From positions 51,150,001 through 51,214,000 of the forward strand of contig NC_043005.1 of NCBI RefSeq assembly GCF_006345805.1: 64,000 bases of DNA, written 5' to 3'. The stretch's first letter is position 1. Each line of letters begins with the position of its first letter. The position numbers and the translations under genes are program-made. The notes beneath the pieces were generated by a model. That model saw only the letters and a program-made list of their open reading frames with translations, did not search any database and was not told the origin of the DNA. Below, in pieces: positions 32,401 through 53,400 of the stretch. The stretch is from Octopus sinensis. Taxonomy: Eukaryota.

Positions 32401-35400
32401 AAATTTATCAGCGTATACCTCAGTATCTTTGTATTACAATGTGCTGATACATGTCTATATATATATGTGTGTGTGTTTGTTTCTATGTGCAACAGTGGTT
32501 TTGTTTATGTGTCAAAGTGTGCATATTCATGTGTGTGTGTGTGAATGCCATATTGTGCGTGTGTCTCTTTGTCTGTACTTAATATCTGATGTATGTGTGC
32601 ATGAGTCAATGTAAGTATATTCACGTTTGAATGTATATGTGTACGTGATTCAGCGCATATAATGTAATGCGTATGTGTGCGCGCGCAGCGCGGTCTTTAG
32701 CGTACTCGAGTTTCTATGTGCCTGCATGTGTGTGTGTGTGTGTGTGTGTGTCTGTCTGTCTGTCTGTCCATGTGTGTATATGTATAAATGTGCATGTCTC
32801 AGTACGTTTACGGTTGGTTGAGTGCATTGCTATATGTGTTCAAGTATTTTGTGAAATGCGCTTACATATTTTTGAGTGTGTGAGAGCGTTTCGATGTATA
32901 CCCGTGTAGTACCCATGACTGATTGTGCGTACATATGTGTGCACGGATATATTTAATGTTAAGTATCTATTTTACGAGAGCGCGGATATTTGAATGCGCA
33001 TACGTTCGTCTGTGTACGTGTGTACTTGTGTGCATTTGTGTGTGTGTGTGTGTGTGTGTGTGTGTGTGTGAACCATAAGAAATAAAAAACAAAGCATTTT
33101 CCACGCCGCTTTTCTTCCTTGAAGAGTTTTTTCCCTTAAATTCGTTATTATGAAACCTCAATTTTGTGTCAAGCTAACCTTAGTTTTATTTTCACCAGTC
33201 TTAATTACGTTGTTGTTGTCTATCATGATTTCGTCATCAAGAAGCGTTAATGTTTTTTTTTTCAAAATGAAATTTAATCCTCCATTGTTTTTGCCCTTTT
33301 AACTAGATTGATACGGCAAGATGGGTAAAACTGTGTAAGAATGAAATCTGTTCAGCACAAACATCACAACAAGAGGAACAAATGTGCAAAGTATTTGAAA
33401 GTTATTCAGAAGATTGCAGAGAAGAAGGAGTTCTTATTCAATGGAGACGTAAAGACGTTTGCCGTAAGTAAATCTTTATATATAAAAGTGAAGTTGTGTG
33501 AGTGTCTGTCTCCTACGATTTAGATTCCAAACTACTCCCAAATTTTCCGATGCAGTGTAACCAAAAGCGGGTATCTTATAGTCGTGATTCATATCGAGCC
33601 CTTCTGGGTATTAGCGCACGTCTACGATGAGTCTACGATTAAAAAAAAATTACCATCATTTTTTCCCATTTTTAATGCATTTTTGCTATTATATAAGGGA
33701 AGTAACTATCTAAAAATACTTATATAGTTATTTCCCTTACAAACCCGATTAACGCCGGGCGATACTGCTAGTATTATATATTCCAATTTTATACATTCCA
33801 TATTACACATTCCCTGCAATCCGTCATTTGCTCCCTTTGTACGGGTATCTATCTATCTATCTATCTATCTATCTATCTATCTATCTATCTATCTATCTAT
33901 CTATCTATCTATCTATCTATTTATATCTATATATATATATTAACTGCAGAGTAGATTTCCGATCTCAGCGCGCCAAAGTGAAGGCATTTGAAAGATACAC
34001 ATAAATATAATTTGTTGAGCTCTATACATACGGGATTTTGGTCAAGCGTTCTGTATCTAGTTCTGGAAATTATGTTTGTAAACGACAGACTATGCTGATG
34101 ATCTTGCAGATGTTCGCGTGTACATATACGTGAATATTAACAAGTGAAACTGATTAGTACATAGGTAATCGTTTTTTTATTTCGTATATTTTCATTTGTC
34201 TTGCTTATTTTTTACACTTAGGTTTTTTTGCTGAGTTTTTTCTTGAGAACACATTCTTCGTGGAAAATAGCGATTTTGACGTCTAAATCTAGCATATTGA
34301 CTGTCCACTTTTAGCGGTCAGTCCTTTAAATTTTATATATATATATATGACATTTATAGAAAAGCAAAAGACGAAGACGTGTATGAACAACAAGCATATG
34401 TATTAGTTGAAAAAATGAAAAAGTATTTTACGTTTCGAGGCTACGCTCTTCAACAGAAAGGAATAAGAGAAAATAAACGCAGAGAATGAAAAAAACCTGT
34501 AGATTTAACGGTCAAGCATGGCGACTATGTGTGTTTGTGTGTGTGGTGTGTGTGTGTGTGTGTGTGTGTAGTGTTGACAGTCGGTAAAAAGAAGAGTACT
34601 CGATGCCATAGTAGAATTAAACAACACATTTTATTTCGGTTGTATCACTTTCATGCCACTCCGACTTTCGCCCACAGGTGCACAGGATCTTTGGACAAAT
34701 TAAGTGTTAGAATCTGACTGAAAGTCCTGTGTACTGACAGGTAAAAATCAGAGCAGCATGATAGCAATATATATATATATATATACTAGCAGTATCGCCC
34801 GGCGTTGCTCGGGTTTGTAAGGGAAATAACTATAAAGCATTTTTTAGAGAGTTATAGCCAAAAAATGGAAAATTATTATGGTAAATTTTTTGAGAGTTAA
34901 AAAGGTCGAGTTGCGTCCCCTAGACAGTCTGTGGTTTGTGTTTCTGATTATCGACCCCATGTCGAATTTATCGATTTTTTCTGAACTGGGGGAACTTTCA
35001 AAATTTTCGCTGCGTTAGTTTTGAATTATGACATTGGGCTATGTGTGTGTCAAGTTTCATCAGAATCGGTTGAAAGCCGTGGTCAGGGTGAGGGTACAAG
35101 CAAACAGACACACAGAAACACGCACAGACAAATGCCGTTTATATATAGAGAGATTATTCTGGTCGAGTCCGTTACATATATACATACATACATATATATA
35201 TATATATATATATATATATATTAGATATATATATATATACCACACCATATATATATATATACATATATTCATTATATATATATATATATATATATCATAT
35301 ATATATATATATATATACATATATATATATATATATATTAATATATATATAATATATATACATATATTCATATATATATTATATATATCTATATATAACA

Positions 35401-50400: not shown

Positions 50401-53400
50401 TCAAATTCACGCGCTTATTGCAGCGGTCCGTCAGTTTTTCTAGGCGCTGTAAAAGAACTCAGAAGGTAGGGTCTCCAACCAGACTTTCGCGATACCCGTA
50501 AAGCCAGGAACTTTTCAACCTCCTCTCCTCTTACGTACATACATACATGCATACATATATGTGTGTGTGTGTGTGTGTGTGTGTGTGTGTGTGTGTGTAA
50601 GTATATATGTATACATATATATATATAAATATACATATACATATATACTATAATATACATATTTATATATATATATATATATTGTTATAAAAAAAGGGGG
50701 GGGTCGAATTAATTAATTATTAATAAATTCGACCAAGCAGTATTCGGTATGTAAAGACCATTTACGGTATATTTGAAGTATTAATTTATAAAAATATGGT
50801 AAAGTAAAAGATCACTTTACCACACACACCAACATTTTCAGAAAGTTGAAGAAATAGCCAAATTTTTGGCTGCTATTTCTGCTATTTGCAGTTGAAGAAA
50901 TAGCCAAATTTTTGGCTGCTATTTCTGAAAAGTTCGGTGTGTGGTAAAGTGAATTCTTTTACTTTACCATATTTTTATAAATTATATATATATATATATA
51001 TATATATATATATATATATATATAATATATATATATATATTGAAGTAGATAATGAATTATCTTATAACGGATAATTCAAATGATAACCGATACCTGGGTA
51101 GCAAAAATCACAACAGAAAGAGCACGGTTGAAGTTACGACCATGGGGCATAAAATCCGTGCCTTTGTGCGGAAATTTGAAGTTTTATATATAAAGTATAG
51201 GAAAGAATGGAGCTGAACGAAGATTTAACAAAATTCCTTTATTTTATTTTCGACATATGTTTCGAAGTCTGCAAAGTCCCTAATTCCGATTGAATAAGGA
51301 GTCCATTTTGCAGCTTTCTCTTCAGGAAAATCCAGGAACTTAATTCTCCAACAAAATGCACAACAAGCTTTTCGACAAACGCTCACGAGGAGCTCATGAA
51401 ATTAATGATACAAACCCTCTATCTATATGCATCCAATCTGGCGTCAACGCATATAGATAGACAGTTTGTATCATTAATTTCATGGGCTCCTCGTGAGCGT
51501 TTGTCGAAAAGCTTGTTGTGCATTTTGTTGGAGAATTAAGTTCCTGGATTTTCCTGAAGAGAAGCTGCAAAATGGACTCCTTATTCAATCGGAATTAGGG
51601 ACTTTGCAGTCTTCGATACATATATCGAAAATAAAATAAAGGAATTTTGTTAAATCTTCGTTCAGCTCCATTCTTTCCTATACTTTATATATATATATAT
51701 ATATATATATATATACACACACACACACACACATAATATATATATTATATAATATATATATATATATATATATATATATATGCATACCTTACTAGTTAGG
51801 GTATTGTACTCATGATCGGGTTACGTGCAGAGTTCTTGAGCAAAACACTTCATTTCACGTTGGTCCACTCTATACTCAGCCGACGAAAATAAATAATTCT
51901 GCGACGGAAAGGTCTCCCGTCCAGAAGTGGGTGGGGTAATATATATATATATATATATATCGGGGTAACTAGCTTTATGAGCCTATCGTTCGGGAAGGCT
52001 CTTTGATTCTTTGTGTATGTATATATGTGTGCATATATAAAGCGTATTGGACAAGTTGTTACAGCGTCCGGTAGATTGCTTTACCGTAATAATTCCAGTT
52101 CTCTAAAACTAGGATGGGTTCCATCAAGTAGTAAAAGTTACCTAGCATCTATGTTACAATTGTGTCTCTACAATTTTATATTGGACTGAGGCCTAAATCC
52201 ATAGTATATATATATATATATATATATATATATATATATATATATATATATATATATATATATATATATATTATATATATATATATATATAATATACAAA
52301 GTGATGGTTTGTTGCCAACTTAATTTGGCAGTTCCAGGAAAGGGACTATTTAGCCCTAAGAAACACCGTTTCTAGTTGGCTACGTGACACAAACGTCCTG
52401 TGTACTTAAGTTTTCAAACAGAGGAGATAAGCACCTCCAGCCAACAAAGCTAGCTACTAGAGACTAGTTTCAGAGTACTTGCTCTTCATCAGTCTGGAAT
52501 AGCTTGGCTTTGCTAGCCCTCGGTGCAAAATCGCTGTTGAAAGATTATCGAATTTCAAGTGAAATAAATCCACTGATCTACAAAATTAGAAATACTGCAT
52601 TTCTAAATCTCTTAGTGACACTTTTGCAGTAGCAGCACGATAAAGCAATGGTTGGTTTGTTGCCAACTTAATGTAACAGTCCTAGAAAAGTGAAGAATGC
52701 TACTGCTATTTAGCCTCAAGAAACACCGTTTCTAGTTGTTTACGTGGCACAATCGTTTTGTGTCCTGATGTTTTCAAACAGGGGAGATAAGCACCTCCAC
52801 CCAACAAAGCCAGCACACAGAGACTAGTTTCAGGGTAGTTTCCTTTCATCAGTCTGGAGTACCATCCCTTTATCATGCTGCAACTGCATAACTCTCTCTG
52901 AGAGATTTAGAAATGCAATATTTCTATTTTGTAGATCAGTAAATTTATTTCACATGGAATTCTGTAAGTTTTCAACAGCAAATTAGCACCAAGAACTAGC
53001 AAAGCCAAGCTACTCCAGACTCATGAAGGGCAACGAAATCTCTTCCTGAACTCCCTCAAAACCTTCATAAGGCACTCTTTGTTGACTGCCTGACGATGGG
53101 GGAAACCCTGTGATGTAGTCGATATACTTGTTATCGAAAAAGGGAATCATCATGAGCTCACCAGTCGACTTTGCCTGCCCTCTCTTGTGCCAACGAAAAA
53201 TAGATGCTCAACTCATACAATTTATTCCATTGACAGTCTGCAGCATTTCATAACTTTCTGTAGTATTTTTGTTCCAATTTGATACAAAACTCTATTTCAT
53301 AGTGTGCTTCCGAATAGTCTTCGTGTGCCGACTGCATTCAGCAAACTACTCAGTTGTAACAAGTAGTGTTTAGTAGGATGCGTTCAAAGTGCTGTCACCG

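What the first reader, a model, noticed from the sequence alone, without database searches (positions are those of the whole stretch)
35393..51693. Ribozyme-bearing units repeatedly occur as foldback palindromes beside (TA)n tracts
Seen: three long palindromes (35393-35896, 49027-49432, 51185-51693) carry a hammerhead in each arm. A fourth (47829-48013) folds back almost exactly where the CUGA core should be, leaving AAGAG AUG...CAUCC GAAAC UCAGA GUU. All lie within or close to (TA)n microsatellites, and their families are unrelated in sequence. Inference: this is a shared insertion mechanism, either self-primed/foldback reverse transcription or twin priming, with (TA)n targeting. Inverted 5'-truncated pLTRs are known for Penelope elements.
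Basis: partly seen in the sequence, partly recalled or inferred. Interest (0 to 1): 0.75.

Follow-up and report, generated by a model that had tools for sequence, protein, structure and literature searches.

The report
Penelope retrotransposon stumps joined head-to-head
These palindromes in the introns of an octopus gene are mirror-image pairs of short repeat ends with hammerhead-ribozyme motifs, set in TA repeats, most likely left by Penelope-like retrotransposons, for which this arrangement is already described.

Summary
The four palindromes are present at the stated places in introns of an Octopus SCO-spondin-like gene. All are head-to-head: both arms read outward. Hammerhead motifs are far above chance (9 cores against 0.08 in shuffles), but only 4 of the 6 arms of the three long palindromes pass a strict scan, and Rfam finds none. 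Five of 7 palindromes in the window abut a (TA)n array (p about 1e-9). Contigs from 4 studies show that the fourth palindrome belongs to a very abundant family that ends at (TA)n. Its left 'flank' is a 66-nt family 3' tail present at one end only. The family forms other head-to-head junctions at scattered, mostly asymmetric points; this locus's exact loop was in none of the 4 runs. Inverted 5'-truncated copies, one-sided tail, opposite-strand hammerhead pairs, (TA)n bias and self-priming are all published for Penelope-like elements (PLEs). The hammerheads resemble those of the Hydra clade. No RT or endonuclease was found near the units, so the link to a coding PLE is inferred. Verdict: new instances of a known PLE insertion structure. 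Copy-back versus two-ended priming is unresolved.

The parts
35393..35896 (.). P1 head-to-head palindrome; arms 35393-35639 and 35647-35896, 7-nt loop
35669..35771 (+). Type I hammerhead motif in P1 right arm: core at 35677, stem I 8 bp, long stem II hairpin, palindromic stem III, predicted cut after 35763
35517..35617 (-). Mirror hammerhead motif in P1 left arm, with one mismatch in stem I
35897..35990 (+). 94-nt one-sided extension of P1 ending at a short (TA)n; possible 3' tail, untested
   Evidence: inference by analogy with P4 and P5
35176..35397 (.). (TA)n array abutting the left end of P1
47763..48013 (.). P4 whole insertion, (TA)n arrays on both sides; arms 47829-47915 and 47927-48013
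47763..47828 (-). 66-nt 3' tail of the P4 family, present on the left copy only and ending at (TA)n
   Evidence: contigs bridge 47829 in all 4 runs; loose ends before 47779/47782 are TA runs
47916..47926 (+). P4 junction: 6 letters that do not match the family on this strand, then the last part of the CUGAAGA core
   Evidence: loose ends before 47922
47922..47974 (+). 3' part of the P4 hammerhead: stem II, GAAA 47957-47960, stem III, predicted cut after 47969; core broken by the foldback
48316..48515 (+). Solo (non-palindromic) copy of the P2 family with a hammerhead core at 48402; 78-80% identical to the P2 arms
49017..49452 (.). P2 head-to-head palindrome; left arm lacks 13 nt near its outer end; right end abuts (TA)n 49452-49720
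49332..49419 (+). Hammerhead motif in P2 right arm (core 49338, predicted cut after 49413)
49040..49128 (-). Hammerhead motif in P2 left arm (core 49122, predicted cut after 49046)
48918..49016 (-). 99-nt one-sided extension of P2 ending at (TA)n; tail or flank, untested
50683..50982 (.). P5, an extra palindrome (arms 50784-50880 and 50896-50982) without a hammerhead; 3' part of a family related to the hammerhead unit at 8605(-); the left copy carries about 100 nt of extra 3' tail; (TA)n on both sides
   Evidence: (extension 77% identical over 79 columns to the 8605 unit, score 79 against a shuffle maximum of 45)
51185..51693 (.). P3 head-to-head palindrome; arms 51185-51430 and 51449-51693, 18-nt loop; right end in (TA)n 51686-51781
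51246..51331 (-). Intact type I hammerhead motif in P3 left arm (core 51325, predicted cut after 51252)
51548..51632 (+). Damaged hammerhead motif in P3 right arm (GAAA to GATA, stem III mismatch)
51041..51184 (-). 144-nt one-sided extension of P3 ending at (TA)n; possible tail, untested
52296..53050 (.). Older partial tandem of two hammerhead units (cores 52492 and 52852, minus strand) joined to an inverted, truncated copy on the plus strand; 3' end at (TA)n 52205-52296
3429..3648 (.).

Best explanation
The palindromes are pairs of 5'-truncated, hammerhead-bearing repeat ends joined head-to-head in or next to (TA)n, likely the 3' ends of Penelope-like retrotransposons (possibly Hydra clade), and likely formed during insertion when the truncated cDNA folds back and copies itself. 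Inferred steps: (1) a PLE GIY-YIG endonuclease nicks (TA)n; (2) its RT starts at the family's 3' end and stops after about 100-350 nt; (3) the cDNA end anneals to a short complementary stretch on itself and is extended back; (4) the copy-back strand stops short of the start, at an internal TA-rich motif that can pair with the other target end, leaving a tail on one side only. Shown: geometry, TA abutment, one-sided tail in P4 and P5, scattered junctions in the P4 family. The hammerhead is a passenger: the foldback can fall before it (P1-P3), inside it (P4) or after it (P5). The PLE origin alone I put at about 0.85; the confidence given is for the whole statement including copy-back.
For: All arms read outward from the centre, the head-to-head form reported as most frequent for PLEs and read as self-priming in PMC3846280 (passages). 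One-sided tail verified in 2 of 2 cases that could be tested (P4, P5); tails at one end are a listed PLE feature (PMC8557442 passages). P1, P2 and P3 also have 94-144 nt between one arm and the next (TA)n. The P4 family's 3' end runs into (TA)n in all 4 runs (loose ends at 47779 and 47782: 37+49, 15+41, 32+40 and 35+50 contigs). Other head-to-head junctions of the family stand in contigs mostly at depths of 12-50 (one at 257), some in two runs (47879-47964 in X2 and X3; 47903-47966 in X1 and X4). The arms come from one source: P2 arms differ at 8 substitutions in about 195 nt but are 78-80% identical to the solo copy; P4 arms differ at 2 of 87 and share three letters (47991, 47994, 48003 and mirrors) that about 84-90% of family depth in X1 lacks. 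Six of the 7 window palindromes have loops of 6-19 nt, as local foldback predicts. Hammerheads with the T...TGAA junction of P2 and the CTC-N-GAG stem III of P4 are common in Hydra-clade PLEs, nearly all of which are listed as (TA)n inserters, including Hydra-1_Obim from Octopus; Penelope-13_HM has an inverted 5'-truncated copy with a second hammerhead (supplement of PMC8557442; compared by eye). Host is an Octopus (exon 91% identical to O. bimaculoides SCO-spondin-like); PLEs are 6.83% of the O. vulgaris genome (supplement of PMC13282606).
Against: No RT or GIY-YIG domain in 145 of the window's 361 open frames of 50 aa or more, chosen around the units, and no match of 5 and 5 short words to the two supplements searched, so no unit is tied to a coding PLE. 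The exact P4 loop was in 0 of 4 runs. 12 of 15 other P4-family junctions are asymmetric by 27 nt or more, which independent cDNAs explain as well as foldback does. A purified Poseidon-clade protein cuts and extends both target strands and has two start sites that bound the tail (PMC11167929), which supports the two-ended rival. Rfam finds no hammerhead, and none of 5 motifs folds as a hammerhead in its minimum-energy monomer structure. No target-site duplication can be read inside (TA)n.
Confidence: 0.47

Rival explanations
1. Same PLE origin, but two-ended (twin) target-primed reverse transcription: a dimeric PLE protein nicks both strands of (TA)n; one end primes at the RNA's 3' start site and the other at an internal start site 66-144 nt upstream, on the same or a second RNA. 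The two truncated cDNAs then join at their ends.
For: PAc cuts and extends both strands, is predicted to be a dimer, and the tail lies between its two RT start sites (PMC11167929). 12 of 15 P4-family junctions are asymmetric, with 0-3 shared letters or a few extra letters. Short ends stop at internal TA-rich motifs that could serve as priming sites. L1 twin priming gives an internal duplication in 17% of inverted insertions (10.1101/2024.08.27.596794 passages).
Against: Start sites did not differ between strands in vitro, so long/long and short/short pairs are expected; the window shows long/short in 2 of 2 verified and 3 further likely cases. Six of 7 window palindromes have near-equal truncation.
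Confidence: 0.33
2. The palindromes are non-autonomous, MITE-like or retrozyme-like units that move as whole hairpins.
For: No coding sequence is attached; one P4-family junction has depth 257 in X4, several times that of its neighbours; retrozymes are described as non-autonomous PLE derivatives (10.64898/2026.07.22.740005, part 1 of 5).
Against: The P4 loop recurs in none of 4 runs, while 6 contigs cross the same centre with other loop letters and 15 other junctions lie elsewhere: the mirror half is made anew each time. 5 of the 9 strict hammerhead cores are solo copies.
Confidence: 0.07
3. The inverted copies arose after insertion, through hairpin-capped break repair at fragile (TA)n tracts or through nested insertion of one copy into another.
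For: Arms abut long (TA)n; asymmetric junctions could be nested insertions; PAc nicks AT-rich DNA in its own pLTR.
Against: Arms stop at the element's own ends and do not duplicate flanking host DNA. Orientation is head-to-head in every case where it can be read. By eye, none of the 7 palindromes is made of the window's commoner dispersed repeats, which are just as close to (TA)n.
Confidence: 0.07
4. Chimeric foldback reads or assembly errors made the palindromes.
For: The P4 loop is absent from 4 of 4 runs. P1's arm differences are 2 transversions and three 1-nt indels in short A/T runs, which look like consensus errors.
Against: Arms end at element ends with different flanks; P0, P2, P3 and P4 arms carry 9, 8, 6 and 2 substitutions; host exons stay collinear on both sides; head-to-head junctions of the P4 family stand in contigs of 4 studies at normal depth. 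No listed run holds more than 0.61 of the words of 48920-52200, so these are probably other individuals and a polymorphic insertion would be missing.
Confidence: 0.04

Closest known systems
Inverted 5'-truncated pLTR with optional tail in endonuclease-positive Penelope-like elements (PMC3846280; PMC8557442 Fig. 2 legend; PMC8969392)
   Same: Head-to-head inverted truncated copies, a tail on one end only, a hammerhead in each copy, partial tandem plus inverted copy (52296-53050), self-priming proposed as the cause.
   Different: Here both copies are so short that no ORF remains; tails are 66 and about 100 nt rather than 30-40 bp; no target-site duplication can be read.
Hydra-clade PLEs, e.g. 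Hydra-1_Obim and Penelope-13_HM (PMC8557442 and its Files S1, S2)
   Same: (TA)n insertion; hammerhead about 100 nt from the 3' end; T...TGAA stem II junction (P2, 34095, 38304) and CTC-N-GAG stem III (P4); known from Octopus; inverted 5'-truncated copy with a second hammerhead in Penelope-13_HM.
   Different: Stem II is much longer here (54-75 nt in P1-P3 against 11-23 nt in the Hydra-clade rows of the table); no sequence match found to the published consensi by 5 short words; no RT to place in the clade.
Minimal type I PLE hammerheads, including opposite-strand pairs 100-700 bp apart (PMC4209133)
   Same: Type I topology, palindromic stem III suited to dimer folding, many unrelated families per genome, mostly solo truncated copies, opposite-strand pairs at 216-287 nt (the core spacings of P1-P3).
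   Different: P1 and P2 lack the G10.1-C11.1 pair called highly conserved there; P4's family has its extra base on the 3' side of stem II; cleavage untested.
Non-LTR retrozymes (10.64898/2026.07.22.740005; PMC7229834, search listing only)
   Same: Non-coding, type I hammerhead, PLE-derived; the 360-nt tandem at 52296-52860 fits.
   Different: Retrozymes are head-to-tail tandems; P1-P5 are inverted pairs.
L1 twin priming (10.1101/2024.08.27.596794)
   Same: Inversion at a 5'-truncated end, short homology at the junction, second primer at an internal site.
   Different: L1 inversions mostly do not duplicate the 3' end; here the arms overlap almost fully.

Membership tests
Penelope-like elements (EN+) | ORF with PLE-type RT and GIY-YIG endonuclease upstream of the terminal repeat | tested here: inconclusive
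   None in 145 open frames around the units, as expected for 5'-truncated stumps; no genome was held to extend the families.
Penelope-like elements (EN+) | Strong 5' truncation with inverted 5'-truncated copy joined head-to-head | tested here: met
   P1-P4 geometry; 15 further junctions in the P4 family.
Penelope-like elements (EN+) | [quoted passage not shown] | tested here: met
   P4, 66 nt; P5, about 100 nt; longer than the published 30-40 bp; P1-P3 untested.
Penelope-like elements (EN+) | Type I hammerhead motif in the terminal repeat | tested here: met
   Pattern scan, 9 cores against 0.08 by chance; not detected by Rfam.
Penelope-like elements (EN+) | Partial tandem forming a pLTR | tested here: inconclusive
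   Seen only in another family at 52296-53050; a tandem-like joint 47973 to 47922 in X3 and X4.
Penelope-like elements (EN+) | Short target-site duplication | not testable with these tools
   Ends lie in (TA)n; PMC8557442 notes the same difficulty.
Hydra clade of PLEs | RT/EN phylogeny and modified linker motifs | not testable with these tools
   No coding sequence recovered.
Hydra clade of PLEs | (TA)n insertion preference | tested here: met
   5 of 7 palindromes abut (TA)n; P4 family ends at (TA)n in 4 of 4 runs. Shared with Naiad and Neptune, so not specific.
Hydra clade of PLEs | Canonical hammerhead near the 3' end with the clade's motif style | tested here: inconclusive
   By-eye likeness to File S2; stem II much longer; no alignment run.
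Naiad PLEs | Lack of canonical hammerheads | tested here: not met
   Full hammerhead patterns present; Naiads lack them.
Non-LTR retrozymes | Head-to-tail tandem of hammerhead monomers | tested here: not met
   P1-P4 are inverted pairs; only 52296-52860 is tandem.
Active hammerhead ribozyme | Self-cleavage in vitro | not testable with these tools
   Monomer minimum-energy folds are not hammerheads in 5 of 5; a transcript through both arms would likely form a long duplex instead.
MITE / foldback DNA transposon | The whole palindromic unit recurs with the same centre and fixed termini | tested here: not met
   P4 centre unique; junctions scattered; outer ends unequal.

The most novel reading that the evidence does not exclude
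Octopus genomes hold very many ORF-less PLE stumps whose head-to-head junctions are a fossil record of the transposition intermediate. Every palindrome pairs one full 3' end with one end cut short at an internal TA motif, and junctions prefer the ribozyme's own stems and core, so the hammerhead's self-complementary parts act as the primer for copy-back. A genome-wide count would settle the open question of how PLEs make inverted copies and would give the hammerhead a role other than cleavage.
Probability: 0.15. Interest if true: 0.6.

Novelty: new member of a known kind. Interest (0 to 1): 0.25.

Why it matters
As a structure it is expected of Penelope-like elements. Its use is as material: the way PLEs form tandem and inverted copies is stated to be unresolved (PMC8557442), and a family this abundant could supply many junctions to separate copy-back from two-ended priming by counting. 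The longer tails and long stem II extend the known range slightly. Near-perfect 90-250 bp hairpins in introns would likely form double-stranded RNA when transcribed, which may matter in animals known for heavy RNA editing (recalled, untested). Such units are also easily mislabelled as MITEs or host flank in repeat libraries.

Tried and rejected
No whole genome was held, so the genome-wide palindrome scan could not be run. Rfam at E<=1 gave 118 matches, nearly all microsatellite-driven miRNA models, and no hammerhead. My own idea that P4's inner 30 bp is a natural stem II, with the foldback at its base, was refuted: other copies diverge before 47922, inside the core. A fixed distance from foldback to cleavage site was rejected. 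An exact 23-nt P4 word found 0 matches in metagenome contigs. Short words from the units found no match in the supplements of PMC8557442 (5 words) or PMC13282606 (5 words; its held supplement has no sequences, and the repeat library itself could not be seen). Pfam found only host C8 and TIL domains in 145 open frames. The run search listed no RNA holder; this says nothing on expression. Earlier findings by place and by sequence were empty. One of the 15 listed joints (47820 to 47880) lies within one arm and was dropped; one joint from table 5c was added; 15 further joints were not shown by the tool. Summed contig depth near 1-2 million against 7-100 per listed contig suggests very many copies, but the tool warns that it is no copy number. 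Seven paper searches found no study of hammerhead palindromes in Octopus and no genome-wide map of PLE inverted junctions; subscription papers are largely outside the library.
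Full report
Setting. The window is animal DNA, 35% G+C, rich in microsatellites. Plus-strand exons encode VWD, C8 and TIL domains, and one exon is 91% identical to an Octopus bimaculoides SCO-spondin-like protein, so the host is very likely another Octopus. The four palindromes lie between these exons. No whole genome was held.

The palindromes. Loops are 6-19 nt in six of them and 40 nt in P6. Arm differences are 2 substitutions plus three 1-nt indels in P1, 2 in P4, 8 plus gaps in P2, 6 plus 1 gap in P3 and 9 in P0. 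P1's differences resemble consensus errors, so it is either very young or the least secure.

The hammerheads. A type I pattern (stem I of 4 bp or more, CUGAnGA, stem II, GAAA, palindromic stem III, UH) finds 9 cores against a mean of 0.08 in 100 shuffles; a looser pattern finds 11 against 0.27 in 60 shuffles. Four of the 9 lie in palindrome arms (P1 right, both P2, P3 left) and five are solo (8605, 13391, 34095, 38304, 48402). P1 left has a stem I mismatch and P3 right has GATA for GAAA. Rfam finds no hammerhead, probably because stem II is 54-75 nt long (inference). None of 5 motifs folds as a hammerhead as a monomer; minimal PLE hammerheads are reported to need dimers and to cleave poorly (PMC4209133, parts 1-2 of 4 read). 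All arms read outward from the centre.

(TA)n. 'Close to' is weak here: 17.5% of non-TA bases lie within 150 nt of a TA array. Direct abutment is not: 5 of 7 palindromes have an end within 10 nt of one of 26 arrays, chance 0.0086 each, p about 1e-9.

Independent data for P4. I laid contigs of four runs from four studies (organisms A, A, A, B) on 47763-48030 at 80% likeness; 6680, 2231, 4112 and 3333 contigs were laid. Four results. (2) 47763-47828 is the family's own 3' end: contigs bridge 47829 in all runs, and loose ends at the outer edge are TA runs in all runs. P4 therefore has one full and one 66-nt-shorter 3' end, each against (TA)n. (3) Six contigs (2, 0, 1 and 3 per run, about four loci) cross the same centre, all with other loop letters; the window's loop is in none. 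X1 and X3 were read to 76-80%, and none of the listed runs seems to be the source animal (best share 0.61), so polymorphism is the simplest reading, but this locus stays unconfirmed. (4) Fourteen of 15 listed joints, plus one from table 5c, join an antisense copy to a sense copy; 15 more were not shown. Their truncation points run from about 72 nt before to 60 nt after the cut site; 3 of 15 are near-symmetric (one at the stem III palindrome, seen in X2 and X3) and 12 differ by 27 nt or more. Sides are short (19-39 letters), so single rows are weak, and nested insertions could mimic some.

One-sided tails elsewhere. P5's 100-nt left extension is 77% identical to the sequence downstream of the 8605 hammerhead unit (score 79, shuffle maximum 45), so it too is a tail. 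P1, P2 and P3 each have 94-144 nt between one arm and the next TA array, with no homolog in the window; these may be tails or flank. The short ends stop at TA-rich motifs inside the element.

One source for both arms. P2's arms are about 96% alike at aligned bases but only 78-80% identical to the family's solo copy at 48316-48515. P4's arms share three letters that about 84-90% of the family's depth in X1 lacks; these may mark one subfamily. This fits one template or one source locus, and does not separate copy-back from two RNAs of one locus.

Mechanism. Shown: geometry, TA abutment, tail asymmetry in two cases, junctions made anew. Inferred: nicking of (TA)n, target-primed RT from the 3' end, truncation, then a second copy. 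Copy-back of the cDNA explains small loops and the long/short pairing without further assumptions (0.47). Two-ended priming at two start sites has in vitro support: the Poseidon protein PAc cuts and extends both strands, and its tail lies between two start sites (PMC11167929, parts 1-2 of 4) (0.33). Whole-unit mobility, later repair and artefact are each below 0.1. Foldback distances to the cut site are 43-48, 117, 165-174 and 179 nt, so cleavage does not set the foldback; hammerhead mutants also did not affect insertion in vitro.

Comparison with what is known. PMC3846280 (passages) reports inverted pLTRs, a 31-bp tail on one of them, palindromes at the inverted junction, head-to-head as the most frequent form, and self-priming as the explanation. 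PMC4209133 reports hammerhead pairs on opposite strands 100-700 bp apart; the core spacings of P1-P3 are 68, 216 and 229 nt, and 287 is not reached by any. PMC8557442 (passages; supplement searches and parts 2 and 52) describes inverted 5'-truncated copies, one-sided tails and (TA)n bias, lists Octopus Hydra and Naiad families as (TA)n inserters, and notes an inverted copy with a second hammerhead in Penelope-13_HM. By eye, the P2, P4, 34095 and 38304 motifs have the Hydra-clade style. PMC8969392 (passages) treats inverted pLTRs and 3' extensions as routine curation features. PMC13282606 (part 1 of 3 and supplement search) gives PLEs 6.83% of the O. vulgaris genome in 190 families; its library was not visible and may already hold these families. 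The retrozyme preprint (part 1 of 5) and the L1 preprint (passages) define the rivals. These units work like PLE insertion ends and meet the structural tests, but membership lacks its main test, an RT/EN ORF. Earlier AI notes on shark and fungal windows reached similar readings; they were not checked and are not support.

Verdict. Real in the window, real as a class in four independent studies, and an expected PLE structure. Interest 0.25; the value lies in the junction statistics that an assembly would allow.

Noticed in passing
window 18198-63372, + strand: Exons of a VWD/C8/TIL gene (SCO-spondin-like); the palindromes lie in its introns.
   Followed up: partly
window 52296-53050: Two hammerhead units in a 360-nt tandem plus an inverted truncated copy with a decayed core; related to the solo unit at 13391(-).
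   Followed up: partly
window 3429-3648: Palindrome P0 whose loop holds GAAAC followed by a possible stem III; may be a foldback at the 3' half of a hammerhead core. Untested.
   Followed up: no
window 40213-40324: Weak palindrome P6 (36-nt arms, 40-nt loop), far from (TA)n and without a hammerhead.
   Followed up: no
window about 48165-48225, - strand: Hammerhead-like motif with a CCGA core, seen by eye in the output; it did not pass the relaxed scan. It faces away from the solo P2 copy, towards the (TA)n at 48132.
   Followed up: no
window 47922-47973 (runs X3, X4): A back-going joint 47973 to 47922 with 7 letters between, at depth 931 and 416: a multi-copy tandem-like form joined next to the predicted cut site, at stem I (table 5c).
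   Followed up: no
window 47922 (runs X1-X4): Loose-end consensus gives CCGAAGA in two runs and CUGAAGA in two, so a core variant is common in the P4 family.
   Followed up: no
window 34095(+), 38304(-), 8605(-), 13391(-): Solo hammerhead units; 34095 ends in a small hairpin followed by a TA run, like the outer end of P1.
   Followed up: partly
window 8-1056(-), 5202-5576(-), 20254-20529(+): DNA transposon remnants: DDE_3, Transposase_1 and ISXO2-like domains.
   Followed up: no
window 31911-32267, - strand: 119-aa frame with no Pfam match; resembles the C-terminus of a LINE RT from memory.
   Followed up: no
window 51430-51460, - strand: The P3 loop and arm start translate to an L-x-P-x-W stretch shortly before a stop, reminiscent from memory of PLE ORF ends; 8 other such matches in the window make it weak.
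   Followed up: no
window 10102-10630, 40993-41376, 42605-42772, 60557-61083; and many 110-230 nt repeats: Abundant dispersed repeats, probably SINEs; one family carries CUGAnGA words, and only the copy at 41321 passes the relaxed hammerhead scan.
   Followed up: no
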